Positions 34,997-50,137 of a DNA stretch of 64,000 bases are shown piece after piece. Position numbers and translations under genes: made by a program. The stretch is from an uncultured cyanobacterium. GTDB lineage: Bacteria; Cyanobacteriota; Cyanobacteriia; Cyanobacteriales; Cyanobacteriaceae. Location: the NCBI GenBank assembly GCA_963749915.1, contig CAVVOP010000022.1:128001-192000 (forward strand), in the 5' to 3' direction. The notes under the pieces were generated by a model that saw only the letters and a list, made by a program, of their open reading frames with translations, was not told where the DNA came from and searched no databases. How positions within the stretch are numbered: position 1 is the first letter of the stretch; each line of letters begins with the position of its first letter.

Positions 34997-35070
34997 CGGG
35001 GCGTAGCGCAGCTTGGTAGCGCACCACTTTGGGGTAGTGGGGGTCGTGGGTTCAAATCCCGCCGCTCCGA
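34997..35070 (+). tRNA. tRNA-Pro(GGG), the CAST homing target
   Basis: Cloverleaf CGGGGCG...CGCTCCGA; anticodon arm CCACT-TT-GGG-GT-AGTGG; T-loop GTTCAAATC. Confidence 0.97.
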
Positions 35071-35079
35071 TTTATGTTT

Positions 35080-35150
35080 TGTACATTCAATAATTAATTG
35101 TCGTTGTTCACACATTATTGTCGCTGTTTAACAAAATAATTTCGTTAAGT
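35080..35150 (+). mobile_element. CAST left end (tRNA-proximal)
   Basis: TGTACATTCAATAATTAATTGTCG-TTGTTCACACATTATTGTCG-CTGTTTAACAAAATAATTTCG: TGTACA terminus plus tandem TnsB sites. Confidence 0.9.
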
Positions 35151-35256
35151 AATTTTTTTGTTGAACTTAGCATGTTCTTTATATTACGTCACATAGAAAT
35201 TCTGCAATACCTTGTTTGTTCGCAGGATTTCATAACTGTGTTAAAAGAGGATACAA

Positions 35257-35293
35257 ACCCCAAAGTCGTGCGCCTTTCAATCTTACTCACACT
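35257..35293 (-). CRISPR. Delocalized homing crRNA: variant partial repeat plus 17-nt spacer against tRNA-Pro
   Basis: Minus strand AGTGTGAGTAAGATTGAAAG + GCGCACGACTTTGGGGT; 16/17 match to tRNA 35019-35035, which is preceded by a GTA PAM. Confidence 0.92.
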
Positions 35294-35400
35294 TTAAATC
35301 ATATCATTTTCTGAAGATAGATGTGAAATAAAATATGTCTATTCCCAATTTTCCTTTTTTCCACAAGCTACTTTTCTCGCTTTCAATACTCTATCCATAT

Positions 35401-35728
35401 CTATCAATCTACACAAAATACGAACAAGAATGTAAGAACACATACAGTTATTGTTTTATGCTTGAAGCATCCCCTCTCAATCTACAAAACACTAATTAGA
35501 GCATTTAAACCTTATTGGAGCAATTAGAAACAAGTATTCTGAACACTTTCAATCTACCAAACACTAATCAGAGTATTGAAACGAAAAGGTATCTGAATTT
35601 ATTTATCGAAGGGTCGCTCTTTCAATCTACCAAACACTAATCAGAGTATTGAAACCAAATAAAGATTTAGTTAAAAAAGCGGTAGAAAAAACTTTCAATC
35701 TACCAAACACTAATCAGAGTATTGAAAC
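35401..35728 (-). CRISPR. Type V-K CRISPR array: 3 perfect and 2 degenerate 37-bp repeats, 35-36 bp spacers
   Basis: Repeat (minus) GTTTCAATACTCTGATTAGTGTTTGGTAGATTGAAAG at 35692-35728, 35619-35655 and 35546-35582; degenerate copies at 35474-35510 and ~35401, keeping the 72-73 bp period. Confidence 0.95.
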
Positions 35729-35919
35729 TTTACACGCTCAAAGCAACTCACTGAAGGCTTCTCTAACTCAATTTTGACGAACCTATTAAAATTCGGGACA
35801 AAATCAACTTGATTGACCTAAGTTTTTTTAAGTAACACTAAAATAAGTGCCACTCTGTATGATTTTGGCGTTTTTGACGAACCTCCTAGGGAATTTAACC
35901 TCGCTATAGGTTGGTCAAA

Positions 35920-36250
35920 ATTAGTGTGAAGTAAGATTCCTTCGGTGAAGAAGGTGATTCAGTAACCATCTCTGTAGTCATCCACATCCTCATTAGAGGA
36001 CTAAGCTCAGAAATAACCTTATTCTTTGCTTTACTTCTTATTGCTGGGAGCGTACCTAACCGATAGAATATAGATAGCATTATCATTTTCTGTCAATATT
36101 TCCTTTCTCTGAGCAAGGTTCAGAGATCGCAGCCTCAGAAGTGGACAGTTACTAGGGTCAGAAAGAATAACTATTGCTTAATAGTCAAACTAACCCACTT
36201 TTTTCACAGTGCAGAGGTTTTGTCTAAACATGGACTGCGACGCTAACTCT
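35920..36250 (-). ncRNA. Cas12k tracrRNA (~320-330 nt)
   Basis: Minus-strand blocks recalled from V-K tracrRNAs: TAGCGTCGCAGTCCATG, GGGTTAGTTTGACT, CTTTCTGACCCTAGTAACTG, TAGGTACGCTCCCAGCAATAAG, TACTGAATCACC; 3' anti-repeat AATCTTACTTCACACTAAT. Confidence 0.88.
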
Positions 36251-36251
36251 T

Positions 36252-36281
36252 ATGTTAATAGTTATGTACTGATTTTGTCAA
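36252..36281 (-). promoter_or_regulatory. Putative tracrRNA promoter
   Basis: TTGACA-N18-TAACAT immediately after the cas12k stop. Confidence 0.65.
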
Positions 36282-36296
36282 GGTACTCGGAAAAAT

Positions 36297-38186
36297 TTAG
36301 GCAGATTTTTCCAAGCGACAATTATAACTATTGAGTGCTGTGGTTTTGGCTTTTTCTTGAGGTGTTCCCGATTTAGGTTGGCTGCCAAACTCGATTGCGA
36401 TTCCTTCTTGAGAAGCTAACTGACTAATATATTCGGTTAGTCGGCTATAACTCCACTGGTGTATGTTTTTGCGGTATTCTTTGGCATATTTTTTCTGTGC
36501 TTTCTTGTAACCCATGATTTTAGTTTCTGCTTTGGCTTGAACTTCGCTCAGGATACTTTCTTTGATGTTAGTTAACTTTGGTAAAACAATACTTTGTGCT
36601 TGATAAAATTTAGCCGTTTGTACGATCGCCCTAGCGATTAATCGATCGATGTATTCTCCAAGGTTAGACTCCCCTTTGTTGCTGAATTTGTCTTGTTTTT
36701 GGGGGTGATGTCTTTGCTTAGAAAGTTTGATTTTTTGTTGCCGTTGACGATTGAGAAGTGAATAGTTGTCGCCTAAAAGTTGCTTGATACTTCGATAGAC
36801 GATCGCATCTTGAGTTATTACATTGACAACAGCTACAGTAGCAGGTTTTTGTAATCCAAAACTGACTCCCAGAATAATATTTGGATTTCCCTGATAAACT
36901 TTTTTGTGTGGGCGTGGATAAGAGGTATTAATTCTAGCTAAACTAGATTCTTTTCGTTTTTGATCTGCTAACTGATTGGGAGTAAGTTCTGATTTTTCTT
37001 GATGTTTATCGATTTTTTCTTTTGTCTTTTGGCTTTTTTCTTGTGCTATTTGGTTTGTGCCTTCGGCAGTCCAAAAACGGGTATCAATGGAACATTGTAA
37101 ATATAGTTTGTGAACTTCCCAAGGATTTCCCTTTCCTTGTTCTTCACGCCATAATATTCTGGCAGAACGAAGAGTAAATAAAGCACTACTATATTTACTG
37201 GAATCTTGTTTATAAGTTTGTTGATCTTCCCAAAAACGTTGAAACCAATGAAGCTGACGACGATCGCATCTTAGTTCAAATTGATGTTTACTTAGACCAT
37301 TGAATTTGACTAATAAATGTCCTCGTTGATCTTGTATCCAAGTTAAATCGATATTAGTTTCATAGGCGATAGGATAGGGAATAACTGGAGATTTTTTCAA
37401 AAGACGACTTTGCCACTCAGATGCTTCTTCTTCTGTTTCGGGAACTTTGTCAGATGTGATCGTCAAGGTTTCTAACCATTTGTCTTGGGTTAAATCTCTG
37501 CCTTGGGGAAGTCTATTTTCCAGTTGTTGTTGATGTCTTTCGATTTCAATTTCCTTTTTTCTACGATATTGTTGGAATTGCTTTATGTCTTCAATTTCAT
37601 CGGGTATTTGACATTGATTTTTAAGTAGGTAGGCAATGGCACATCGATCAAGAATGTCTGTTCGTAACTCGTATTCATTCATAAAATGTTGGAACAAATC
37701 ATTGTCTTTTTTTTGTTTCTTCTTTTTTCCTTGTTTGTCTGACTTTAGGTTATTTTGAGCTTCTTTGAGTATTTTGTGGGCTTGATCGACAATTTTTTCA
37801 ATATTACTCCCTGATATTGCTTCTAACTCAGCATCACTTTTGAGAATATTAAGCCATCTCTGTTTACCTTCTATTTTTCTTTGTAGTCTAGCTTGAACGG
37901 CAAACCATGATTTGTATATGTAATGGGTAAGAGCGATCGCACTGGTAAAAAAACGTCCTGGTTGATTTTGATACTGGGGTAAATCCCTTAAAGGTTGGCA
38001 TATATCCTTAATTGGTTTTTGAGATATTTTTTTTGTCTTGAACCATTCTTCAAATTCTTCATGATGAGAGACTCTATAGAGTAATTCGTTAACAAGGGGG
38101 GTATTTTTTTCGCTCATCAGTTTCCAAAGATAACGCAGTGAGTCTGACGGAGCATATAAGCGACATTCAATAGTTTTCTGGCTCAT
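36297..38186 (-). CDS. cas12k: Type V-K effector Cas12k (nuclease-dead RuvC); likely start MSQKTIECRL
   Basis: TIECRL..LWKLM.EKNTPLVNEL, YIYKSW, RRQLHWFQRFWED, YSSALFTLRS, LGVSFGLQKPAT, SIVLPKL, HQWSYSRL; context with array and tns genes. Confidence 0.96.
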   Translation of the reverse strand: MSQKTIECRLYAPSDSLRYLWKLMSEKNTPLVNELLYRVSHHEEFEEWFKTKKISQKPIKDICQPLRDLPQYQNQPGRFFTSAIALTHYIYKSWFAVQARLQRKIEGKQRWLNILKSDAELEAISGSNIEKIVDQAHKILKEAQNNLKSDKQGKKKKQKKDNDLFQHFMNEYELRTDILDRCAIAYLLKNQCQIPDEIEDIKQFQQYRRKKEIEIERHQQQLENRLPQGRDLTQDKWLETLTITSDKVPETEEEASEWQSRLLKKSPVIPYPIAYETNIDLTWIQDQRGHLLVKFNGLSKHQFELRCDRRQLHWFQRFWEDQQTYKQDSSKYSSALFTLRSARILWREEQGKGNPWEVHKLYLQCSIDTRFWTAEGTNQIAQEKSQKTKEKIDKHQEKSELTPNQLADQKRKESSLARINTSYPRPHKKVYQGNPNIILGVSFGLQKPATVAVVNVITQDAIVYRSIKQLLGDNYSLLNRQRQQKIKLSKQRHHPQKQDKFSNKGESNLGEYIDRLIARAIVQTAKFYQAQSIVLPKLTNIKESILSEVQAKAETKIMGYKKAQKKYAKEYRKNIHQWSYSRLTEYISQLASQEGIAIEFGSQPKSGTPQEKAKTTALNSYNCRLEKSA

Positions 38187-38327
38187 AATTTTTATCCTCA
38201 ACAAGAGACTAAATCTAATATAGCATGACCAAAGATGTTAATTAGTGGCTAATAAGTGGCAATAACTAGAATCAGATCTTTTCGTTATAGGATCGATAAA
38301 GTATAAAGAAAAACTAATGAGAGAGTA

Positions 38328-38495
38328 ATGACAAAGAGAGTGTATTTAACACTAGCGGATAAGGTTTATGATGCGTTGGAAAGGTGGGCAAATGATCAGG
38401 GGCGCCCCGTTGCCAATTTAGCCGCCTATTTGGTGGAAAGGGCGATCGAAGATGCTGAAAATGAGGGGAAAATACCTCCCTTGACTAAAAAATAA
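38328..38495 (+). CDS. 55-aa ribbon-helix-helix (CopG/Arc-like) repressor, divergent from cas12k (absent from ORF track)
   Basis: MTKRVYLTLADKVYDALERWANDQGRPVANLAAYLVERAIEDAENEGKIPPLTKK*; occupies the usual CAST regulator position. Confidence 0.85.
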   Translation: MTKRVYLTLADKVYDALERWANDQGRPVANLAAYLVERAIEDAENEGKIPPLTKK

Positions 38496-38589
38496 GGAAA
38501 TTTTTGTTTTCAGATGGGAAAAATGCTTTGTATCTTTGGTAAAATTCTATTTCTACGGTTGTTAGGCACAAACATAAAAAGTCTTTAAA

Positions 38590-40182
38590 ATGGCAAAAAA
38601 CAAAGAAAATAATAACAATACAACTGACAATAAAAGTTTAGAAAGTTGGATTTGGGATGCGGCTTGTAGCATTCGAGGGGTTCAGGAAGCGTCTAAGTAT
38701 AAAGATTTTATATTACCTTTAATTTTTACGAAACGTCTTTGTGATGTTTTTGATGATGAGTTAAATCGTATTGCTAAGAAGATTAAAACTCGTGCTAAAG
38801 CCTTTGAGTTTGTTGAAAATGATCATGAGTTAGTCAGATTTTATTTACCTCTGAAACCGAAAAATCCTGATGATGATGTTTGGAAAGTGATAAGAACTTT
38901 AAGCGATGCCAACACAGAAAAGAGCGATTCTTCTGTAAGCTACGGTGAAAGGGTGACTAATTATTTAAGAGATATTGCCAAAGAGAATCCATTATTAAAG
39001 GGAATTTTAGATAGAGTTGATTTTAATGCGACAACTCACGGCGAAAGGGATTTAGATGACGATCGCCTGTCAAATTTGATTGAGAAAATTTCTGAGAAAA
39101 GATTAGGGTTAAATGATGTTGAACCTGATATTATCGGACGTAGCTATGAGTATTTAATTCGCAAGTTTGCTGAAAGTGGTGGGCAGTCGGCAGGGGAGTT
39201 TTATACGCCGATGGAAGTGGGGATGATAATGGCGAAAATTATGCAACCTAAGCCAAGTATGGAAATTTATGATCCTTGTTGTGGTTCGGCAGGTTTATTA
39301 ATTAAGTGTCAATTGGTTTTACAGGAAGAACAGGGAGATAATCAATACGCACCATTGCAGTTATATGGACAGGAATATACTGCTAATACTTGGGCAATGG
39401 CGAATATGAATATGATTATTCATGATATGGAGGGAAAAATTGAAATAGGTGATTCTTTTAAAAATCCCAAGTTTAAGTATAAAGGGAAGTTGAGACAATT
39501 TGATCTAGTTGTGGCTAATCCGATGTGGAATCAAAACTGGTTCACTGAAAAGGATTATGATAACGATGAATGGGGGCGTTTTCCAAAGGGGGCAGGTTTC
39601 CCCGGTTCAAAAGCTGATTGGGGTTGGGTTCAACATATTAATGCTTCTTTGAAAGATGATGGTAAAGCGGCGATCGTTCTTGATACGGGGGCGGTTTCGA
39701 GGGGTTCTGGGAATGCTAACAGGGATAAGGAAAAGGATGTGAGAAAGTGGTTTATTGAACAAGATTTAATTGAAGGGGTGATTTATTTGCCTGAAAATCT
39801 TTTTTATAACACTTCTGCACCGGGTATCATTTTAATCTTAAATAAGGCTAAATCCGCAGAAAAAAAAGATAAGTTATTTTTTATTAATGCCAGTTTAGAG
39901 TTTGCTAAGGGCGATCCGAAAAACTATATTCCTGATGAGGGTATTAATCGCATTGCTGAGACTTTTTTAAGTTGGCAAGAAATCGATAAGTTTAGTTGTA
40001 TTGTTGATAAGGCTAAAATTGTTGAGAATGATTATAATATCTCTCCTTCTCGTTATATTCATGTAGCTGAGGCTGAAGAATTTAGACCAATTAGTGAGAT
40101 TTTGCTAGAGTTGGATGAGTTGGAGAAGGAAGCAGAAACAACAAATAAGAATTTAATGCAGGTTTTAAGTAAGTTTAGGTAA
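38590..40182 (+). CDS. hsdM: Type I R-M methyltransferase subunit (cargo)
   Basis: GEFYTP, YDPCCGSAGLL, ANPMW (variant of NPPF/W), ENLFYNT. Confidence 0.93.
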   Translation: MAKNKENNNNTTDNKSLESWIWDAACSIRGVQEASKYKDFILPLIFTKRLCDVFDDELNRIAKKIKTRAKAFEFVENDHELVRFYLPLKPKNPDDDVWKVIRTLSDANTEKSDSSVSYGERVTNYLRDIAKENPLLKGILDRVDFNATTHGERDLDDDRLSNLIEKISEKRLGLNDVEPDIIGRSYEYLIRKFAESGGQSAGEFYTPMEVGMIMAKIMQPKPSMEIYDPCCGSAGLLIKCQLVLQEEQGDNQYAPLQLYGQEYTANTWAMANMNMIIHDMEGKIEIGDSFKNPKFKYKGKLRQFDLVVANPMWNQNWFTEKDYDNDEWGRFPKGAGFPGSKADWGWVQHINASLKDDGKAAIVLDTGAVSRGSGNANRDKEKDVRKWFIEQDLIEGVIYLPENLFYNTSAPGIILILNKAKSAEKKDKLFFINASLEFAKGDPKNYIPDEGINRIAETFLSWQEIDKFSCIVDKAKIVENDYNISPSRYIHVAEAEEFRPISEILLELDELEKEAETTNKNLMQVLSKFR

Positions 40183-40222
40183 TTTTCATTAGGCAACAAA
40201 TAGACAATTAAAGAAAATTTAT

Positions 40223-41518
40223 ATGCTTTTATCTCCAATAAAAAATATCCCCAAAGACTGGAAAATAGTTGAACTACAGAATGCAGGTGAAGTTATTTAT
40301 GGAATTCAAGCATCTGTTGCTAATAACATTGAGCCAATCGGAACAAAAATATTAACTAACAAAAATATTACTCTTGATGGTGGTTTTGATTTAGAAAAAA
40401 TTAACTATTTTGAATTGAAAACAAAGCGACATAAAGAAACCATTTTAAAACAAGGTGATATTCTTTTTAATTGGCGTAGTGGTAGTAAAGATCATGTAGG
40501 AAAAACAGCTTATTTTAACTTAGATGGTCAATATACTCATTCTTCCTTTATTCTTAGAATACGTTGCAACACTAATACCATTTATGGTAAGTATTGTTAC
40601 TATTATTTGCTATGGTTGCATAAATCAAAGTATTTTCTAAAACTTCAAACTTATGCTATCAATGCAAAATTCAATAAGAGTGCAGTTAATTTATTACCAA
40701 TTATTCTTCCCCCAATTGAAGAACAAATAAAAATAGTCAATGTTTTAAGTTTAGTACAAAAAGCAATTAGTGAACAAGAAAAGGCGATCGCTTTAACAAC
40801 AGAATTAAAAAAGGCGTTAATGCAAAAACTATTTACCGAAGGGCTAAATAATGAACCTCAAAAAATGACTGAAATAGGTCTTATTCCTGAAAGTTGGGAG
40901 GTTAAAGAATTAAAATATTTTATTGAAATACCTCAATATGGTTTTACTGATAGTGCAAGTGATAAAGGAAATACCAAATTTTTAAGAATTACAGATATTA
41001 CAGAATTTGGAGTAAATTGGAATACAGTACCATTTTGCAATTGTCCAATTGAGAAAATCGATCAATATTTATTAAAAGACAATGACATTGTTTTTGCTCG
41101 AATTGGTGCAACAACTGGAAAAAGTTATATTATTAAAAATCCTCCTTTTTCGGTATTTGCCTCATATTTAATTAGAGTTAGAGCAATAAAAATAGATCCC
41201 GATTATTTATTTCAATTTTTTCAAACACAAATTTATTGGCAACAAATTAATGCTAGAAAAGACGACAGTTTGAAGAAAGGTGTCAACGGTTCTGTATTAA
41301 AAAATATTCTGATTCCAATTCCATTAGAAAAAGAGCAAAAAGAAATTGCAAAAATATTTCAAACTTTTGAGCAAGAAACTAATTTATTAATGATAAAAAA
41401 ATCACAATTACAAGAGTTATTTAAAACTTTATTACATCAATTAATGACTGCTCAAATAAGAGTAGATGAATTAGATTTAAGTGTATTAGAGACTCAAATA
41501 GAGGAGGTTAGAAATTAA
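40223..41518 (+). CDS. hsdS: Type I R-M specificity subunit (cargo)
   Basis: Two TRDs separated by LPPIEEQ...LKKALMQKLFT..IGLIPESWEV. Confidence 0.92.
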   Translation: MLLSPIKNIPKDWKIVELQNAGEVIYGIQASVANNIEPIGTKILTNKNITLDGGFDLEKINYFELKTKRHKETILKQGDILFNWRSGSKDHVGKTAYFNLDGQYTHSSFILRIRCNTNTIYGKYCYYYLLWLHKSKYFLKLQTYAINAKFNKSAVNLLPIILPPIEEQIKIVNVLSLVQKAISEQEKAIALTTELKKALMQKLFTEGLNNEPQKMTEIGLIPESWEVKELKYFIEIPQYGFTDSASDKGNTKFLRITDITEFGVNWNTVPFCNCPIEKIDQYLLKDNDIVFARIGATTGKSYIIKNPPFSVFASYLIRVRAIKIDPDYLFQFFQTQIYWQQINARKDDSLKKGVNGSVLKNILIPIPLEKEQKEIAKIFQTFEQETNLLMIKKSQLQELFKTLLHQLMTAQIRVDELDLSVLETQIEEVRN

Positions 41519-43462
41519 ATGCTAACCTTTGATGAAATTTGGGAAATGTTAACTACCCAAGATGAAAGTACAGAAATAGAAGCGAAAAAAGCCTCTGATA
41601 TGGGTAAAAGCATTTTGGAAACTATTAGTGCTTTTTCCAATGAATCAGGTTTAGGTGGCGGTTATTTATTATTAGGAATAAAATCAGCAGAAGATAGTCA
41701 AAATAATATTTATGAGATTGAAGGTTTAGCAGAACCTGATAAAATTCAAAGAGATTTAGCTTGTCAATGTCGAGAAGTTTTTAACATTCCCATTCGCCCT
41801 CAAATAGAAACTATTACAAAAGAAGGGAAAACGGTTATTGTCGCTTTTATTCCCGAAGCTCAACCCTCAGAGAAACCAGTTTATATTACTAAAAGAGGAC
41901 TACCCAAAGGAGCATTTAGACGTATAGGCTCAACGGATCAAAAATGCACAGAACGAGATTTAGAATTATTCTATCAAGAAAGAAGTAATCAAACTTTTGA
42001 CCAAACTCCCGTTAAAGATGCAAGTTTAGATGATTTTGAGTCACAGGCTATTGATGCTTATCGCCGTATTAGAAAACAAGTAAACCCCAATGCTAGTGAA
42101 CTTAACTATAGCGATCGTGATTTATTAGATTCTTTATATGCCATAACCAAACATCCCAATCAAAAAGGAGAATATTGCCCTACTGTAGCAGGATTAATTT
42201 TATTTGGTAAAGAAATAGCCTTAAGAAAGCATTTTCCTTTACAGCGTGTTGATTATATTGTAGTTGAAGGAAAGGAATGGGTAGAGAATCCAGATAAACG
42301 TTATCAAAGTGTGATTGAAATTCGTCAGCCTTTATTATTGGCTATTCCTCGACTAACAGCTTTAGTTTTAAACGATTTACCTAAAGCCTTTAATCTTCCT
42401 GAAGATCAGATAAATCGGCAAGATATTCCTTTAATTCCTAGTGCGGTTATTAGAGAAGCTATTGTTAACGCTGTTATGCACAGGGATTATCGTATTCGTA
42501 GCCCAATTCAGATTATTCGATATTCAGATCGTTTAGAACTTCGTAACGCTGGTTATTCTTTAAAATCAATAGACGAATTAGATCAACCAAGTTCAAAAAC
42601 TCGTAATGAAAAAATAGCTGAAACTCTCCATGAGTTAAATATAGCCGAAACTAAAGGATTTGGTATTAGAACCATGTTAGAAAATATGCGACAAGCAAAT
42701 CTAACTATTCCTTTATTTGAATCAAGTAGAGAAAAAGACTCTTTTTGTCTTACTTTATTTACTCATCATTTTTTAGAGCAAGAAGATATTGACTGGTTAA
42801 CTCAATTTAAAGATCTTAACTTAAGTAAAGAAGAAACAAATGCTTTAGTTGTAATTAAAAAAACAGGTAAAATAAATAATTCAATTTATCGTTATGTTAA
42901 TGATGTTGATATAAATAAAGCAAGTAAGCAATTAATAAAATTAAGGGATTTAGGTTTAATTAATCAAAATGGTAAAAGCATAGCCACTTATTACACCATC
43001 AAGCCTGAATTTTTATCGGGACAGTTAGAAAAACCTTATCAAGATAGTAGTACAGATAATCAAGACACCTTATCAGGACAGTCAGAAAAACCTTATCAGG
43101 AAGACAATACAGGCAATCAAGACACTTTATCAGGACAGTTAGAAAAACCTTATCAAGACAGTAGTACAAGTCAACAGGGACAGTTAACTCTTGATTTATT
43201 TCCGCCTCTAAGCAAAAAAAAACTTGAAGAAAGATTAAATAAAATTGGTAAACGAACCGAACCAGAGGAAATGAAAAGCCTAATATTGGAATTGTGCAGA
43301 ATAAAGCCTTATTCATCTAGTGAATTAGAAAAATTGTTAAAACGAAAGCGAAAATATTTATTAGAACAATATCTTAAGCCTTTAATTGATGACAAGTTAC
43401 TAGAATACACTAACCCCAATAGTCCTAACGATCCTCATCAAACTTATCGCACAAAACAATAA
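41519..43462 (+). CDS. AlbA_2/HATPase/HTH ('RecG-like') ATP-binding protein with an internal 19-aa repeat (cargo)
   Basis: ESTEIEAK, ETISAFSN..GG.LLLGI, REAIVNAVMHRDY, RNEKIA, C-terminal PNDPHQTY. Confidence 0.85.
   Translation: MLTFDEIWEMLTTQDESTEIEAKKASDMGKSILETISAFSNESGLGGGYLLLGIKSAEDSQNNIYEIEGLAEPDKIQRDLACQCREVFNIPIRPQIETITKEGKTVIVAFIPEAQPSEKPVYITKRGLPKGAFRRIGSTDQKCTERDLELFYQERSNQTFDQTPVKDASLDDFESQAIDAYRRIRKQVNPNASELNYSDRDLLDSLYAITKHPNQKGEYCPTVAGLILFGKEIALRKHFPLQRVDYIVVEGKEWVENPDKRYQSVIEIRQPLLLAIPRLTALVLNDLPKAFNLPEDQINRQDIPLIPSAVIREAIVNAVMHRDYRIRSPIQIIRYSDRLELRNAGYSLKSIDELDQPSSKTRNEKIAETLHELNIAETKGFGIRTMLENMRQANLTIPLFESSREKDSFCLTLFTHHFLEQEDIDWLTQFKDLNLSKEETNALVVIKKTGKINNSIYRYVNDVDINKASKQLIKLRDLGLINQNGKSIATYYTIKPEFLSGQLEKPYQDSSTDNQDTLSGQSEKPYQEDNTGNQDTLSGQLEKPYQDSSTSQQGQLTLDLFPPLSKKKLEERLNKIGKRTEPEEMKSLILELCRIKPYSSSELEKLLKRKRKYLLEQYLKPLIDDKLLEYTNPNSPNDPHQTYRTKQ
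43013..43183 (+). repeat. 57-bp in-frame tandem repeat, about 3 copies
   Basis: Units start at 43013, 43070 and 43127 (LSGQLEKPYQDSSTDNQDT). Confidence 0.9.
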
Positions 43463-43485
43463 ATTATCTTTTTCTTCTCTCAAAT

Positions 43486-46428
43486 ATGCCTAAACCAACT
43501 GAACATAAAACCGTCCAAGATCGCATCTTAACCTATGCCCAAGAAATAGGTTGGACATTTGTACCTCGTAAAGAAGCCGAAGCTAAAAGGGGTTTTAACG
43601 CCCCTTTACCCACGAGTTTGGGAAAACAAAAGGGCGTTGAAATTCAACACAAAGCCCAACAAGGATCATTATATTTTGATGATACTTTGTACCAAAAAGT
43701 CAAAGAATTTAATCCTCATTACAACGAAACCAAAGGGGATTTAATTAAACGCCTCAATAACTTATCCCTCGACATTTACGGTAATCGAGATTTTCTGAAC
43801 CTTCTACAAAATCAAGGTAAATACTTTTATCAAGCTGAGAATAGAGAACTAGATTTAATTTTAGTGGATTACGATCGCTCTGAAAATAATATTTATGAAG
43901 TTACAGAAGAATATTATACCCATAACGGGAAATACGGCACAAGGGAAGATGTGGTATTTTTAATTAATGGTATTTCAGTATTGGTCATTGAATGTAAAAA
44001 CGCCAATAAGAATGAGGCGATCGCATTAGGAATTGATCAAATTAGACGTTATCACCGAGAAACCCCAGAGTTATTTATTCCCCAAATGTTATTTACAGCT
44101 ACAGAGGCGATCGGTTTTGCCTATGGCGTAACTTGGAATATCGTCAGACGCAATATTTTTAACTGGAAAGATGAAGAAATTGGGCAACTAGAAAACAAAA
44201 TTAAGACTTTTTGCCATCCCCAAATAATCTTAAAATTTCTGAAAAATTATATTATCTTTGCGGAAAAAGACGAAACTTTACAAAAATATATTCTAAAACA
44301 ACATCAAACCTTAGCTATCGAACAAGTAATTAACCGTTGTCACGATGAAACTAAATTTAGGGGATTAGTGTGGCACACTCAGGGAAGCGGAAAAACCTTC
44401 ACCATGATTAAAACTGCCGAAATGCTCTTTAAAGCCCCAGAAAGCGAAAAACCCACTATTATTCTAATGATCGATCGCAACGAATTAGAAGATCAAATGT
44501 TACGCAACCTGAATAACTTAGGGGTTAACAATATTCGCCATGCCGATCGCATAAAAACCCTTGTGGAATTACTCGAAAACGATTATCGAGGTATTATTAT
44601 CACCATGATTCATAAATTCCGAGAAATGCCTCCTAACATCAACACAAGAAAAAATATTTATATTTTGATAGATGAGGCACACCGCACCACAGGAGGAGAT
44701 TTAGGCACATTTTTAATGGCAGGTTTGCCCAATAGCACAATTATTGGCTTTACTGGTACACCCATTGACAAAACCAATCAAGGAAAAGGTACTTTCAAGG
44801 TTTTTGGGGTTGATGATGAAAAAGGTTATTTACATAAATACTCGATCGCTGAAAGTATTGAAGATGGTACAACTCTACCCCTTTACTATAACATCGCTCC
44901 TAATCAATTATTAGTCCCTGCGGAAATAATGGAGCAAGAATTTCTTGATTTAGTAGAAACAGAAGGGATAAACGATATAAGTGAACTCAATAAAATTTTA
45001 GATCGAGCAGTTAATTTAAAGAATTTTCTCAAAGCAGATCAAAGAATTGATCAAGTAGCAAAATATGTTGCTGAACATTATACAACCAATGTCGAACCGT
45101 TAGGATATAAAGCCTTTTTAGTAGCCGTCGATCGCCCTGCTTGTGCTAAATATAAAGAAGCCTTAGATCGTTATTTACCCCCTGAATATTCGGCGGTAGT
45201 CTATACAGGTAATAACAACGATAGTGAAGAACTAAAGGCTTACCATCTCGATGATAAAACAGAGAAGCAAATCCGCAAAAACTTCGCTCGTTTTGGAGAA
45301 TATCCGAAAATTTTAATAGTAACGGAAAAACTATTAACAGGTTATGACGCACCATTACTATATGCCATGTATCTGGATAAACCAATGCGAGATCATACCC
45401 TCTTACAAGCGATCGCCCGTGTTAATCGCCCTTATGAGAATGAAACAGAGGAGATGCTTAAACCTCATGGCTTTGTCTTAGATTTTGTGGGTATTTTTGA
45501 TAAATTGGAAAAAGCCTTAGCCTTTGATAGTGAAGAAGTTAACGCTATTGTTAAAGATTTACAATTACTTAAAAATTTATTCAAAATCAAAATTGAGCAA
45601 TTAGTTCCCACTTACTTGCCCCTAATTAAACATAACTTTAACGATCAAGATGTCGATAATTTAATTGAATTTTTCAGGGAAAAAGAACAACGCAAAGGAT
45701 TTATTAAAGGCTATAAAGAGTTAGAAATGCTTTATGAAGTTATATCACCAGATGCTTTTTTACGCCCTTATATTGACGATTATACTAGCCTCTGTGGCAT
45801 TTATCAGGTGGTTCGTAATGCTTATACTCGCAGAATTTATCTCGATCGAGAAGTGAAACGCAAAACTGATGAAATAGTACAACAAAATATTGGGACAACG
45901 GCGATCGCCTCTATTAATGAATTTATCGAAATTAATGCAGAGACAATTGAAACCATTAAAAACAAAAAAAATGGTAACACAACCAAAGTAATTAACTTGG
46001 TAAAAAGTATTGAAAAAATAGCAGAAGAAAATAAAGATGATCCCTTTTTAATCGCTATGGCACAAAGAGCAAAGGCGATCGAAGAAAGATTTGAAACAAG
46101 ACAAGTTGATACTCAAGAAACTTTAGATTTATTATTTCAAGAAATCAAAAATAATGAACAAAGGAAAAAGGAACAATCCGCCCAAGGCTTTGATAATTTA
46201 AGCTATTTTGTTTATAAAATCTTAAAAGATGCTGGAATAGAAAGCCCAGAAGAAGTAAGTCATCAGATAAAACAAGCATTTGTTGATTATCCTAACTGGA
46301 AGAAAAGTGAAAGAGAATTAAGAGAATTACGAAAAGAAGTTACTTTTTCTATCTATGAAAAAATAGATGATTTAGATCAAGTTACTGATATTGTTAATCA
46401 GTTATTCAACCTCTTAAATCAAAATTAA
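43486..46428 (+). CDS. hsdR: Type I R-M restriction subunit (cargo)
   Basis: D.VFLING...VIECK, HTQGSGKT, DEAHR, FTGTP, LLTGYDAP, QAIARVNR. Confidence 0.94.
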   Translation: MPKPTEHKTVQDRILTYAQEIGWTFVPRKEAEAKRGFNAPLPTSLGKQKGVEIQHKAQQGSLYFDDTLYQKVKEFNPHYNETKGDLIKRLNNLSLDIYGNRDFLNLLQNQGKYFYQAENRELDLILVDYDRSENNIYEVTEEYYTHNGKYGTREDVVFLINGISVLVIECKNANKNEAIALGIDQIRRYHRETPELFIPQMLFTATEAIGFAYGVTWNIVRRNIFNWKDEEIGQLENKIKTFCHPQIILKFLKNYIIFAEKDETLQKYILKQHQTLAIEQVINRCHDETKFRGLVWHTQGSGKTFTMIKTAEMLFKAPESEKPTIILMIDRNELEDQMLRNLNNLGVNNIRHADRIKTLVELLENDYRGIIITMIHKFREMPPNINTRKNIYILIDEAHRTTGGDLGTFLMAGLPNSTIIGFTGTPIDKTNQGKGTFKVFGVDDEKGYLHKYSIAESIEDGTTLPLYYNIAPNQLLVPAEIMEQEFLDLVETEGINDISELNKILDRAVNLKNFLKADQRIDQVAKYVAEHYTTNVEPLGYKAFLVAVDRPACAKYKEALDRYLPPEYSAVVYTGNNNDSEELKAYHLDDKTEKQIRKNFARFGEYPKILIVTEKLLTGYDAPLLYAMYLDKPMRDHTLLQAIARVNRPYENETEEMLKPHGFVLDFVGIFDKLEKALAFDSEEVNAIVKDLQLLKNLFKIKIEQLVPTYLPLIKHNFNDQDVDNLIEFFREKEQRKGFIKGYKELEMLYEVISPDAFLRPYIDDYTSLCGIYQVVRNAYTRRIYLDREVKRKTDEIVQQNIGTTAIASINEFIEINAETIETIKNKKNGNTTKVINLVKSIEKIAEENKDDPFLIAMAQRAKAIEERFETRQVDTQETLDLLFQEIKNNEQRKKEQSAQGFDNLSYFVYKILKDAGIESPEEVSHQIKQAFVDYPNWKKSERELRELRKEVTFSIYEKIDDLDQVTDIVNQLFNLLNQN

Positions 46429-46430
46429 TT

Positions 46431-46766
46431 ATGCTTTCAATCGATAAACAAAAAACGTGGAAAAATACTGAAGACTTGAAAAATACAGTTTGGACATGGA
46501 GCGATCGCATTAATGTGCAAGTCAAAGAGATTCAACTACGTCAAATGAAAAATAAATGGGCTTCTATCTCTACGACAGGTAGATTAACTTTAAATAAAGA
46601 ATTGATGGATTTACCTCAAGAATTAGGAGAATTTGTAATTGTACATGAATTAATTCATCTACTCGTACCTAATCACAGCAAATTGTTTAAATGTTATATG
46701 TCAGTCTATTTACCAGATTGGCAAGATCGAGAAAAACGCTTAAAAAAGTTATCTTCTCAAAAATAA
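46431..46766 (+). CDS. M48/YgjP-like metallopeptidase (cargo)
   Basis: MKNKWAS, VHELIHL..PNH; typical partner downstream of hsdR. Confidence 0.85.
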   Translation: MLSIDKQKTWKNTEDLKNTVWTWSDRINVQVKEIQLRQMKNKWASISTTGRLTLNKELMDLPQELGEFVIVHELIHLLVPNHSKLFKCYMSVYLPDWQDREKRLKKLSSQK

Positions 46767-46788
46767 ACAATGTAAATCAAATCAGGAT

Positions 46789-47295
46789 TTATTTTTGCTT
46801 TTTACTCATCTTCGTAAATGATAAATGACAGCGATCGCATCTACCATCTTTCCATAGAGAAGGAACAGAAAAAGAAGTTCCACAGTTAGGACATTTAGAA
46901 AGTAATTTCACCTTATGAAGATCGCATCCTCTTTTCTTCTTATCTTGCCATTGTAAACGATGATAGGGAGCTTCTTGATAACACATTCCACACAGCATAA
47001 TCGGTTTAATTTGCGTCACCATACCCTGATAAGGAAACATTTCCCGAAGGCGATCGACATCCAACATCACGACTGTTGCTAATTTTTCTAATTCTTGTGG
47101 CGTAGGAAAGGGAGAAAAATAAAACTTTTCCCATCGAGCCAAAATAGCCCCCAATCCTGCCACTTCACCCAATCCACTTGGTGCGGAGAAACGATTTCCT
47201 TTCGCACGGCGAAATCTGCCCAAGAAATGACTAATACTTTCCCCTTCAAATGGCTCAACTTTGGTTAACCACAACTCACTTTCTCTTTCTTTCAT
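46789..47295 (-). CDS. tniQ: TniQ, short V-K type
   Basis: PFEGESISHFLGRFRR, RWEKF...P, CxxC/CxxH zinc motifs. Confidence 0.93.
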   Translation of the reverse strand: MKERESELWLTKVEPFEGESISHFLGRFRRAKGNRFSAPSGLGEVAGLGAILARWEKFYFSPFPTPQELEKLATVVMLDVDRLREMFPYQGMVTQIKPIMLCGMCYQEAPYHRLQWQDKKKRGCDLHKVKLLSKCPNCGTSFSVPSLWKDGRCDRCHLSFTKMSKKQK

Positions 47296-48136
47296 AAGAC
47301 CATTTTGTTGATGCTATAACTTGTTTTAATATCTCAGGAGTAATGTGTGTTTCTCCCCTCGAAAGGGAACGAATTGCCGCCTTGCGTAAAATCATGTCTA
47401 AACGTCCAATCAATTTACGAGTAGCAGTTTTGAGTAGTTTTAAATTGTCTGCTTCCGCTAAATTTGAAGGTTCAGGTAATCTCAGGACATTTTTCTCCCA
47501 AACTTGCACAATCATTTTAAACTCCTTATCATCAAGGCGATCTAGTTCGTATTCTTCTAAGAAACGATTAGCAACCTGTTCATCTCTTTTGACAACGGCT
47601 TCTAAACGACTGGTTGTACCCACCAACAAAACAGATATATTCAACTCATCTTCATCGTAAACGTGCCTGACATCAGCAAAAGTTTCTTGCTTTAAATGAT
47701 TAGCCTCATCCACAATCAACATCTCGCAACCATGAATCGCTAAACCATCGAGAGTCCTTTCCCTCAAATCCGATATTGTTCCTTTGGTGGGCTTATTCAA
47801 TGCCTTGAGTATCTTGATGAAAAAATCTCTTGAGCCACATTTTTCAGGTACTTGAATATAAACCACTGGCTTAATCCGTTGCTTTTGCCCTTGTTTTGAC
47901 TTATTGTATCTGGCGGCAAAAGATTTACAAGTAACTGTTTTCCCACAACGAGATTCCCCCACTAATAACCCTGTCATCCTAGAAAGAATCAACTCATACA
48001 TCCAACCGTGACACTGTTTTACCTGTTCAAACTCAATATATGGATCTTTCCTTAATCGCTCAATTTCGGCTTGAATTTCAGCAGTGATAGTAGGAAAGTT
48101 ACCAAACTGGTGTGCGATCGTCTCTACATTTGTCAT
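47276..48136 (-). CDS. tnsC: TnsC AAA+ ATPase
   Basis: Walker A GESRCGKT, Walker B MLIVDEA, VLLVGT, IGRLD.ILR.AAIRSL. Confidence 0.94.
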   Translation of the reverse strand: MTNVETIAHQFGNFPTITAEIQAEIERLRKDPYIEFEQVKQCHGWMYELILSRMTGLLVGESRCGKTVTCKSFAARYNKSKQGQKQRIKPVVYIQVPEKCGSRDFFIKILKALNKPTKGTISDLRERTLDGLAIHGCEMLIVDEANHLKQETFADVRHVYDEDELNISVLLVGTTSRLEAVVKRDEQVANRFLEEYELDRLDDKEFKMIVQVWEKNVLRLPEPSNLAEADNLKLLKTATRKLIGRLDMILRKAAIRSLSRGETHITPEILKQVIASTKWSYERKRK

Positions 48137-48159
48137 TTTTTTGTCCTCAACAAACTGAA

Positions 48160-49851
48160 TTAATGATCATCAAAAAGGTCATCCATGTATGACACTTCGT
48201 AAGTAGGTATTTCTTCATCTAAGTCCTCATCATTTTCATCTTCAACTATTTCAGGTTCAGGAATTGTCAATTTTTCCGCCATAGTTTTAGTTGGATTAAC
48301 CTCTTTGTGAGCTACCTGACGGCGTTCTTGTCGATCCTTTTTCGTGAGAGTTTCCAACAAAACTTCCCTTTCTAACATGGCATCAAGTACCGCATCATTA
48401 TTGATTTTTTCCTGTTCTCGATTGAGATTTTTATTAATCGCCTTCAGTTCACGCAATGACAGACTTTCGGCTTCTAATCCTTGAGCATGGGCATAATCAA
48501 GGAATTTTTCTGTACCGTCATTCAAACGCTCATAAACCAATATTGTCGTTATATCTTCAGGATCATAGCGAATTGAGACGATTTCCCCTGCCATTCCCCG
48601 CAAATGTTCACTTTTATAGGTGATATTTTCAAACTGCAACGTGCCAAACTTCTGAATAGTCCTTCGAGTCTGCCTCATCAAACAAATGTCTAGTTCCCTT
48701 TCTTCATAGGGTTCAGGCTCAACTACTAACCCATTTTCCCACAGTTGTATGCGAGCTTGGTCTTTTCTCCTGCCATCTGGTTTTTGATTATATTCATCAA
48801 CAATATACTTCACCAAGATAAGTTCGAGATCTCTCAGGGTAAGACTAGCATTTTGATCAACATTGTTAGGTCTTTCCTGAACATTTGCACCTGTATAGCC
48901 TGGTAATTCCCTCAACACATTATCATTTAGTGTCCGAAAAAACCTTTCAACAATACCACCATCCGATGGTCTTCTTCTTAAAGAACAAGTAAACCCCAAT
49001 CCCACTGCTATGTGTTCTGTTAGATGAATCGAACGAAAATCCTTGCCACCATCTGTATAAAAATATGTGGGAGTACCATAAGCAGTCCATTCGTTACGCA
49101 AAGAATATTCTGAGCCATAATATTTAGGTAAAATAGCATGACGTAATGCTAAAGCGTCTATTTGAGAACTAGGACTCTCAAAGCCTAAATAAAATCCCAT
49201 TAAACAACGAGAATATGAGTCAATAATGATTGTTAACCAAGGACGATCTAACACCCCAAACTCATCGACCAATCTCACATCGAGACGAGTATGATCGCAT
49301 TGCCAAACATCATTACTAGCTTCTACTTCAAGTTCTCTACCATCACGAGTCATGTGGGTTAATTTCGAGCCTGAATATCCTGGACTTCTAGCTTTGCGTT
49401 TTTTGTCTTGTTCTTGTACATATTGATCGATAATTCTATAGACTGTTTGATGACTGGGATAATCTTTTTTTTCTAAACCTAATTGTTTAGCACGTCCTTT
49501 GACTTTCAAAAAAACTTGATGGCGAGTAATGCGTTTACCATTTTGATTTCCTTTCTTGTAGGCATCTAAAATGAAATCAAACCACTCTTGATCAATACGG
49601 ATTGTACCTTTATCTGCCCTAGTTTTGATTATGCCCACAAAACCTTCTTCTCGGTATTTTTTCATCAATCTTTCGATGGAACGAATTGATACACCCAACT
49701 TTTCAGCCGCTTGTTGTTTTCTTTCACGATACAAGGTGCGATCGCATGGTTCAATCAGACTTTCAACGACTTCCATTCTCAATTTTACCTCATCGGTAAT
49801 CTGTTCTTCAGAAGGAAGCCTATATACTTTTGGTTGCTTCGATAATGCCAT
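48160..49851 (-). CDS. tnsB: TnsB DDE transposase; start uncertain (49851 or 49914)
   Basis: WQCDHT, RPWLT.IIDSYSRC, YTDGGKDF, GIVERFF: intact DDE. Confidence 0.95.
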   Translation of the reverse strand: MALSKQPKVYRLPSEEQITDEVKLRMEVVESLIEPCDRTLYRERKQQAAEKLGVSIRSIERLMKKYREEGFVGIIKTRADKGTIRIDQEWFDFILDAYKKGNQNGKRITRHQVFLKVKGRAKQLGLEKKDYPSHQTVYRIIDQYVQEQDKKRKARSPGYSGSKLTHMTRDGRELEVEASNDVWQCDHTRLDVRLVDEFGVLDRPWLTIIIDSYSRCLMGFYLGFESPSSQIDALALRHAILPKYYGSEYSLRNEWTAYGTPTYFYTDGGKDFRSIHLTEHIAVGLGFTCSLRRRPSDGGIVERFFRTLNDNVLRELPGYTGANVQERPNNVDQNASLTLRDLELILVKYIVDEYNQKPDGRRKDQARIQLWENGLVVEPEPYEERELDICLMRQTRRTIQKFGTLQFENITYKSEHLRGMAGEIVSIRYDPEDITTILVYERLNDGTEKFLDYAHAQGLEAESLSLRELKAINKNLNREQEKINNDAVLDAMLEREVLLETLTKKDRQERRQVAHKEVNPTKTMAEKLTIPEPEIVEDENDEDLDEEIPTYEVSYMDDLFDDH

Positions 49852-49904
49852 TACCCAAACTAATTTACTATTTAACTCTTTTTTTAGAATAGCATTTAGC
49901 CCAA

Positions 49905-50137
49905 GAAACGACAACTAAAATATTAAATTATTCTGCAATGGTCAATTGATCTGATCAAAAAATAAGCGACATTTAAAACTTTAAAAACAATAATAAACGA
50001 CATTTAACTGTTGAAATAAGTTGTCCGATTCCACAAGAACATAAAAAGCACTCTAATCCATATATAATGGCATTTATAGAGATTTTTAATGGCGACAATA
50101 ATGTGTTAAACAGCGACACTTAATTATTGAATGTATA
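49905..50137 (-). mobile_element. CAST right end with multiple TnsB sites; terminus TATACA instead of TGTACA
   Basis: Reverse complement TATACATTCAATAATTAAGTGTCGCTGTTTAACACATTATTGTCG mirrors the left end; further CGACA sites near 49910, 49967 and 49998. Confidence 0.88.

What the first reader, a model, noticed from the sequence alone, without database searches (positions are those of the whole stretch)
35080..50137. Complete type V-K CAST (RNA-guided transposon) with intact core genes
Seen: all parts in canonical order (tRNA, left end, homing spacer, array, tracrRNA, cas12k, repressor, cargo, tniQ, tnsC, tnsB, right end), with intact TnsB DDE and TnsC Walker motifs and no cas1, cas2 or tnsA. 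Established: the V-K class (ShCAST, AcCAST) is known. This ortholog's repeat, tracrRNA and ends can be read in full, so it is a candidate for reconstitution as an insertion tool. Whether this ortholog is already catalogued cannot be told here.
Basis: partly seen in the sequence, partly recalled or inferred. Interest (0 to 1): 0.85.

Follow-up and report, generated by a model that had tools for sequence, protein, structure and literature searches.

The report
Cyanobacterial RNA-guided transposon at tRNA-Pro
This is a real RNA-guided jumping gene of a well-known cyanobacterial class, with intact genes and an anti-phage restriction cargo but one worn end; it is another member of a common family, and it offers small clues to how these elements change their landing site.

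Summary
Confirmed: a 15,058-bp type V-K CAST, 61 bp from a GTA PAM in tRNA-Pro(GGG). Cas12k (NF038191, 864 bits) keeps the dead RuvC and the PAM residues, and TnsB DDE, TnsC and TniQ are intact. The cargo is a type I restriction-modification operon. 'Complete' needs a caveat: the right end starts TA instead of TG (26 of 27 related ends start TG, none TA), and there is no 5-bp target duplication, so the native copy is probably poorly mobile. Cas12k is common in the host family (12 of 20 genomes). This ortholog's repeat and homing spacer are absent from a 128-system catalogue, but its clade is represented there (Rippkaea PCC 8801; Cas12k 53%, TnsB 69%). Three side observations: (1) three close relatives sit at three tRNA-Pro isoacceptors, each with a matching homing spacer on an exchanged DNA block; (2) the tracrRNA anti-repeat pairs better with the homing repeat than with the array repeat (19 of 26 loci by Watson-Crick pairs; 11 of 26 counting G-U); (3) an RHH_5 regulator sits beside a V1-type tracrRNA, a pairing the catalogue does not list. 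Earlier scan notes held nothing on this element. New member of a known kind.

The parts
34997..35070 (+). tRNA-Pro(GGG), host attachment gene (outside the element)
   Evidence: ARAGORN; Rfam RF00005
35016..35035 (+). GTA PAM (35016-35018) and 17-nt homing protospacer (35019-35035); 61 bp from protospacer start to left end
35080..35146 (+). Left end: TGTACA terminus and three tandem TnsB sites (the third has a core substitution)
   Evidence: 92.5% identical to G006 left end
35147..35267 (.). Variable block between the inner left-end site and the spacer seed; unrelated in close relatives; holds the distal part of the homing spacer
   Evidence: joints in runs X2, X3, X7
35257..35273 (-). 17-nt homing spacer, 16 of 17 to tRNA-Pro(GGG), mismatch at position 7
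35274..35292 (-). Truncated homing repeat; 9 contiguous Watson-Crick pairs to tracrRNA anti-repeat 2, against 5 for the array repeat
35380..35473 (-). Decayed distal repeat remains and a 37-nt spacer-like stretch
   Evidence: fuzzy repeat hit at 35401-35417
35474..35728 (-). CRISPR array: three identical 37-nt repeats, one degenerate repeat, three spacers of 35-36 nt with no target found
35924..36245 (-). tracrRNA, V1 type with two expansions (about 320 nt; ends inferred); anti-repeat 1 CTTTC, terminal hairpin 35939-35954, anti-repeat 2 35924-35938
36252..36281 (-). Promoter-like site just after the cas12k stop codon (candidate tracrRNA promoter; the scan as a whole is at chance level)
   Evidence: position as described for AnCAST
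36297..38186 (-). cas12k, 629 aa; RuvC-inactive S442/P536/P609; PAM-contact residues R78, T277, R340, R411, R418
38328..38495 (+). RHH_5 (CopG-like) ribbon-helix-helix regulator, 55 aa, divergent from cas12k
   Evidence: Pfam PF07878 64 bits
38590..40182 (+). Cargo: type I R-M methyltransferase HsdM
40223..41518 (+). Cargo: specificity subunit HsdS
41519..43462 (+). Cargo: Schlafen/AlbA_2 + HATPase_c_4 + Fic-like C-terminal protein inside the R-M operon, with three 57-bp internal repeats
43486..46428 (+). Cargo: restriction subunit HsdR
   Evidence: TIGR00348 above cut-off
46431..46766 (+). Cargo: short YgjP-like metallopeptidase (C-terminal half of the Pfam model)
46789..47295 (-). tniQ, 168 aa, zinc-finger Cys/His kept
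   Evidence: ShTniQ E=9e-59
47276..48136 (-). tnsC, 286 aa, Walker A GESRCGKT, Walker B LIVDEA
   Evidence: ShTnsC E=3e-65
48160..49851 (-). tnsB, 563 aa, D186/D267/E302 and an acidic C-terminal hook-like tail
   Evidence: ShTnsB E=2e-174
49907..50137 (-). Right end: five TnsB sites (2+3); terminus reads TATACA instead of TGTACA

Best explanation
A type V-K CRISPR-associated transposon of the V1 tracrRNA type. Shown from sequence: nuclease-dead Cas12k, tracrRNA, a homing guide matching the adjacent tRNA-Pro(GGG) beside a GTA PAM, insertion 61 bp downstream, intact TniQ/TnsC/TnsB, and a type I R-M cargo. Inferred from ShCAST: the Cas12k-tracrRNA-crRNA complex binds the target and recruits TniQ and a TnsC filament; TnsB joins the 3' ends without TnsA (replicative, co-integrate-prone). 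Array spacers would direct hops to mobile DNA and would be acquired by host Cas1-Cas2 in trans; the RHH_5 protein probably represses the divergent cas12k promoter. The proteins are probably functional, but this copy is probably impaired as a donor, because the right terminus has lost the conserved TG/CA and the flanks show an old or recombined insertion.
For: NF038191 864 bits against a cut-off of 150. All 5 PDB matches are ShCas12k; top PDB matches for the other three are ShTnsB, ShTnsC, ShTniQ. Residues map onto those named. Homing match and 61-bp spacing fit the V1 mean of 62 rather than the V2 value of 54. tnsC against G006: 57 synonymous and 18 non-synonymous codon changes, 60 of 82 differences at third positions. 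Ends: 26 of 27 metagenomic matches begin TG, 1 TC, 0 TA; G006 and G007 right ends are TGTACA. TnsB contacts the first two end nucleotides (PMC9371665).
Against: No activity or expression data. No run held half of the sampled words, so the right-end base could be an assembly error; one search did not display that position. I found no test of this exact end change in a V-K system (search 58, listing only). Repression by RHH_5 is inferred from position. No array spacer target was found. The best PADLOC hit is a model labelled 'Cas12j' (870 bits), slightly above 'Cas12k' (862 bits). No type I-D Csc2 was found in this genome, although I-D is the proposed spacer donor.
Confidence: 0.85

Rival explanations
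1. Fully active element: the right-end change is an assembly error or is tolerated, and the missing duplication only reflects recombination between serial insertions at the same site.
For: All ten ORFs are uninterrupted. Near-identical pieces lie in four runs from four studies. G006 and G007, whose termini are normal, also lack a clean 5-bp duplication; G007 has an 18-bp one. Dual insertions at one site are published.
Against: 0 of 27 related ends start TA. The third left-end site and the distal array repeats are also decayed.
Confidence: 0.3
2. Dead or domesticated island kept for its restriction-modification cargo; the CRISPR and transposase modules are recently inactivated relics.
For: Damaged ends and a short decaying array. 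The closest relatives are decaying: G006 lacks cas12k and G007 tnsB is split by a frameshift. The host genome carries other end relics at tRNAs.
Against: No stop or frameshift in cas12k, tniQ, tnsC or tnsB, and every checked functional residue is kept.
Confidence: 0.2
3. Member of subgroup V-K_V2, suggested by the RHH_5 ('Arc_2') regulator.
For: RHH_5 is the domain that defines Arc_2. In the catalogue the first Arc_2 row is row 109, and the 12 of 20 Arc_2 rows I viewed all carry V2-type tracrRNAs.
Against: PAM distance 61, not 54; TnsC 286 aa, not about 306; V1 tracrRNA layout with anti-repeat 2 at the 3' end; V2 is restricted to Nostocales. Cas12k groups with P0007, whose system is catalogued as V1.
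Confidence: 0.02

Closest known systems
ShCAST (Scytonema hofmanni), type V-K prototype
   Same: Gene set and order, RuvC S/P/P, PAM-contact residues, DDE, GTN PAM, about 60 bp spacing, no TnsA or Cas1/Cas2.
   Different: Separate TnsB clade (relatives at about 60-91%, then a drop to about 55% or less); tracrRNA about 320 nt against 218 nt; repeat 3' end GGTAGATTGAAAG instead of the V1 consensus GGyGGGTTGAAAG; RHH_5 regulator; type I R-M cargo.
Rippkaea orientalis PCC 8801_(2), row 77 of the 128-system catalogue (PMC12416283 Dataset 3)
   Same: Long V1 tracrRNA, homing to a tRNA-Pro from the same register, same Cas12k clade (12-row clade 100/100); Cas12k 53% and TnsB 69% identical.
   Different: Targets the CGG isoacceptor, has another array repeat and a 682-aa Cas12k; the catalogue lists no regulator for it.
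V-K_V2 subgroup with Arc_2 regulators (PMC12416283)
   Same: Regulator of the RHH_5 family, divergent from cas12k.
   Different: tracrRNA type, spacing, TnsC length and host order all differ. The RHH_5 here is 46-75% like homologues with no cas12k beside them, so an independent capture is likely (inference).
MG64-1 and MG64-6 (PMC11906591)
   Same: Metagenomic V-K orthologs with pseudo-repeat self-targeting spacers, GTN PAM, 57-67 bp insertion.
   Different: Those were shown active; this one is untested. Their sequences were not compared here.

Membership tests
Type V-K CAST | Cas12k effector | tested here: met
   NF038191 864 bits; ShCas12k E=2e-189
Type V-K CAST | Inactivated RuvC (S452/P546/P619 in ShCas12k) | tested here: met
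   S442/P536/P609
Type V-K CAST | tnsB-tnsC-tniQ operon at the right end, no tnsA | tested here: met
   TnsA domain only on contig C15
Type V-K CAST | No cas1/cas2 in the element | tested here: met
Type V-K CAST | tracrRNA between cas12k and a short 37-nt-repeat array | tested here: met
   18 of 67 predicted pairs have compensatory changes among 6 sequences; no Rfam family matched it
Type V-K CAST | Truncated repeat with 17-nt spacer to the adjacent tRNA, GTN PAM, 46-82 nt to the left end | tested here: met
   16 of 17, GTA, 61 nt
Type V-K CAST | Ends with TG...CA termini and multiple TnsB sites | tested here: inconclusive
   Left end and eight sites present; right terminus reads TA; read-level check not possible
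Type V-K CAST | 5-bp target-site duplication as the scar of a fresh insertion | tested here: not met
   TGTTT against CTTGT; also missing in G006 and G007; bears on the age and history of this copy, not on the class
Type V-K CAST | RNA-guided insertion activity | not testable with these tools
   needs reconstitution
V-K_V2 subgroup | V2 tracrRNA, 54-nt spacing, about 306-aa TnsC, Nostocales host | tested here: not met
V-K_V2 subgroup | RHH_5 (Arc_2) regulator | tested here: met
   PF07878; definition; relatedness to V2 Arc_2 proteins judged by eye only

The most novel reading that the evidence does not exclude
V-K elements change their chromosomal home by swapping a short cassette (the distal homing spacer plus the DNA up to the inner left-end TnsB site) with co-resident CASTs, recombining in the shared repeat-plus-seed. 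In addition, the tracrRNA's second anti-repeat co-evolves with the homing repeat rather than the array repeat, so that homing guides are loaded preferentially. This element would also mark an uncatalogued V1 sub-clade with its own end sequence and an independently captured RHH_5 repressor, possibly orthogonal to ShCAST.
Probability: 0.35. Interest if true: 0.6.

Novelty: new member of a known kind. Interest (0 to 1): 0.36.

Why it matters
As a tool candidate it is one more V-K ortholog. It comes from a transposase clade with different end sequences, and I found no reconstitution of that clade in the papers seen, so it could be orthogonal to ShCAST. Anyone rebuilding it should test a consensus right end and base the single guide on the homing repeat, which pairs better with the tracrRNA than the array repeat does. 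The trio at three tRNA-Pro isoacceptors gives a concrete test case for why V-K attachment sites do not follow the Cas12k tree and why atypical homing repeats exist (called unresolved).

Tried and rejected
Array spacer targets: no full-length match in the own genome, only chance-level hits in plasmids and phages (best E 0.02 and 0.8), and 0 exact 20-mer matches in viral contigs for each of 3 spacers. The homing spacer has one other 16/17 match in the genome (C21:395631), without a GTN PAM; not counted as a target. Cas12k scan of metagenome contigs: 38 pattern hits, 0 confirmed. Sequencing runs: 0 of 24 held half the words. The four laid were contigs of relatives, so expression and the right-end base could not be read; habitat labels were not used. 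The idea that the position-7 mismatch relieves a spacer hairpin gave -0.5 against -1.3 kcal/mol alone and no difference with the repeat attached: rejected. The duplex energies used a clipped anti-repeat and were set aside for those. Promoter scan: 5 sites against 4.2 expected, not evidence by itself. Type I-D Csc2 not found in the genome. HIP1 density gave no signal. The PADLOC 'Cas12j' label was set aside: NCBIfam, PDB and gene context all say Cas12k, and I recall, from no call, that V-U5/Cas12k was briefly called Cas12j. Saito et al. 2021 is not held and may already describe homing-repeat pairing; the Hsieh and Peters table of 282 Cas12k genes was not seen, so 'not catalogued' holds only for the 128-system table. 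Earlier scan notes concerned unrelated R-M islands or were empty. No structure or complex was predicted.
Full report
Observation. The element runs from 35080 to 50137, 9 bp after tRNA-Pro(GGG), with 27-nt inverted arms at its ends. On the minus strand lie a truncated repeat with a 17-nt spacer (35257-35292), an array of three identical 37-nt repeats and one degenerate repeat (35474-35728), a tracrRNA and cas12k. The spacer matches tRNA positions 35019-35035 at 16 of 17, behind a GTA PAM, 61 bp from the left end. The naive chance expectation is about 2e-8; the only other genomic match at up to two mismatches has no GTN PAM. A 55-aa RHH_5 gene diverges from cas12k. It is followed by hsdM, hsdS, a Schlafen/AlbA-HATPase gene, hsdR and a short YgjP-like gene, then tniQ, tnsC and tnsB facing inward from the right end.

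Proteins. Cas12k scores 864 bits on NF038191 (cut-off 150) and matches only ShCas12k entries in the PDB (5 of 5). The residues that replace the RuvC triad in ShCas12k and its five PAM-groove residues (bioRxiv 2021.07.07.451486, passages) map to S442/P536/P609 and R78/T277/R340/R411/R418. TnsB has D186/D267/E302, the counterparts of D205/D287/E321 (bioRxiv 2022.08.05.502904, passages). TnsC Walker motifs and the TniQ zinc ligands are intact. tnsC differs from that of G006 mostly at synonymous sites (57 against 18 codons). One contrary label: PADLOC ranks a 'Cas12j' model (870 bits) just above 'Cas12k' (862 bits).

The ends are worn. The right terminus reads TATACA inward. Among 27 metagenomic matches to this end type, where the first two bases were left free, 26 begin TG, 1 TC and none TA; some of the loci are redundant. 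G006 and G007 have TGTACA at the right end. The flanks are TGTTT and CTTGT, with no 5-bp duplication; G006 has none either and G007 has an 18-bp one, which points to old or recombined insertions. TnsB holds the first two end nucleotides (PMC9371665, passages), but I found no test of this substitution (search 58, listing only), and no reads of this strain were available. Impaired mobility is therefore an inference.

How common, and is it catalogued. Cas12k is found in 12 of 20 genomes of the host family, this one included, and 791 of 7,999 scored candidates reach E<=1e-100. The nearest full-length Cas12k proteins are 71% (G007) and 62% (P0002). The nearest named TnsB proteins come from Geminocystis herdmanii (91%), Gloeothece citriformis PCC 7424 (72%) and Rippkaea orientalis PCC 8801 (69%). 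In the 128-system catalogue of PMC12416283 (parts 1-3 of 5 of the text; supplement searches with long cells cut) this repeat, homing spacer and end string have 0 hits. Row 77, Rippkaea PCC 8801_(2), is a V1 system with a similarly long tracrRNA that homes to tRNA-Pro. A 29-row Cas12k tree, without V2 or ShCas12k rows, puts the window and P0007 in one 12-row clade (100/100). The 282-gene table of Hsieh and Peters (bioRxiv 2021.02.06.429022, parts 1-3 of 4 of the text) and Saito et al. 2021 were not seen and may hold closer entries.

Side finding 1: retargeting by block exchange. The window, G006 and G007 sit at tRNA-Pro GGG, CGG and TGG, each with a spacer in the same register that matches its own isoacceptor (16, 17 and 16 of 17). 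G006 is 93-95% identical in TnsB/TnsC/TniQ, 92.5% in the left end and 94.5% in the homing repeat region, yet the block between them, which holds the distal spacer, shows no similarity. Contigs from 3 of 4 laid runs jump from 35133-35145 to 35268-35269. A relic of a different end type at this genome's tRNA-Pro(TGG) shares G007's spacer, mismatch included. Exchange between co-resident elements explains all of this, but fresh acquisition followed by local turnover is not excluded. That V-K attachment sites do not follow the Cas12k tree is already published.

Side finding 2: the tracrRNA favours the homing repeat. Here anti-repeat 2 makes 9 contiguous Watson-Crick pairs with the homing repeat and 5 with the array repeat (-18.9 against -12.0 kcal/mol). 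Of 54 tracrRNA rows, 26 had both repeat types: the homing repeat had more Watson-Crick pairs in 19, tied in 4 and had fewer in 3, and its duplex was stronger in 18. With G-U pairs counted the split is only 11/8/7. Mean pairs with own against foreign tracrRNAs were 8.15 against 6.50 for homing repeats and 6.96 against 6.50 for array repeats; dropping 3 doubtful rows (L078, L080, L112) gives 19/3/1 of 23. The loci were drawn mostly by likeness to this tracrRNA and are related, so the sign-test p of 0.0009 overstates. There is partial precedent: Rybarski et al. write that the tracrRNA has 'homology to the atypical repeat' (bioRxiv 2021.08.16.456562, passages). I saw no quantified comparison in searches (listings) or in the passages read.

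Side finding 3: regulator. RHH_5 is the domain that defines 'Arc_2' (PMC9938897, passages). In the catalogue Arc_2 first appears at row 109, and the 12 of 20 rows viewed have V2 tracrRNAs. This element is V1 by tracrRNA layout, spacing and TnsC length. RHH_5 genes face away from cas12k in 4 elements of this clade (window, G007, L172, L096); of the 19 other matches in a 401-genome search, 18 had no cas12k in the fetched flank (up to 1.5 kb). An independent capture is the simplest reading.

Verdict. A genuine V-K CAST with intact genes and a worn right end: a new member of a known kind, from a clade that is catalogued but, in the papers seen, not reconstituted. The class is no surprise; the side findings are testable leads. 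Interest 0.36.

Noticed in passing
G000:C5:1138-1211 (minus strand) and downstream (L140): tRNA-Pro(TGG) carries a second V-K left-end relic with a different end type and a homing unit, cut off by a transposase-like ORF. Its 17-nt spacer equals that of G007, including the same mismatch (34 nt at 94%).
   Followed up: partly
G000:C21:497609-497710 and G000:C5:15113-15200: tRNA-Pro(CGG) and tRNA-Ala(CGC) are followed by short TGTACA end-like stubs with no element behind them: possible scars of lost insertions.
   Followed up: partly
G000:C15:24364-26610: A TnsA domain next to a distant TnsB homologue (28%): another Tn7-like element in the genome.
   Followed up: no
G007:C4 about 1004100-1024400 (L044, L045): The related element is flanked by an 18-bp duplication instead of 5 bp, as recombination between two insertions at different offsets would give; its tnsB is split by a frameshift.
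   Followed up: partly
window 38187-38327: The cas12k-RHH intergenic region keeps three short motifs in 4 of 4 RHH-linked elements, one a near-palindrome (TAATTAG core), a candidate operator.
   Followed up: partly
window 35298-35327 (minus strand): An extended -10 promoter-like site lies just upstream of the homing repeat and could give the homing guide its own transcript; the scan overall is at chance level.
   Followed up: no
window 43013-43183: Three 57-bp in-frame repeats in the Schlafen/AlbA-HATPase cargo gene placed between hsdS and hsdR.
   Followed up: no
L077 and L078: Two tracrRNA copies lie in tandem in each of two genomes; in one, a homing repeat follows the anti-repeat within about 10 nt, like a natural single guide.
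   Followed up: no
L144-L170: Left ends of this end type sit at tRNA-Lys, Thr, Phe, Ala, Asn and Pro, so the clade retargets widely.
   Followed up: partly
G000:C8:935421-939556: An intact cas1-cas2 beside a 37-repeat array is the likeliest in-trans spacer source; a second cas1 on C21 is partial.
   Followed up: partly
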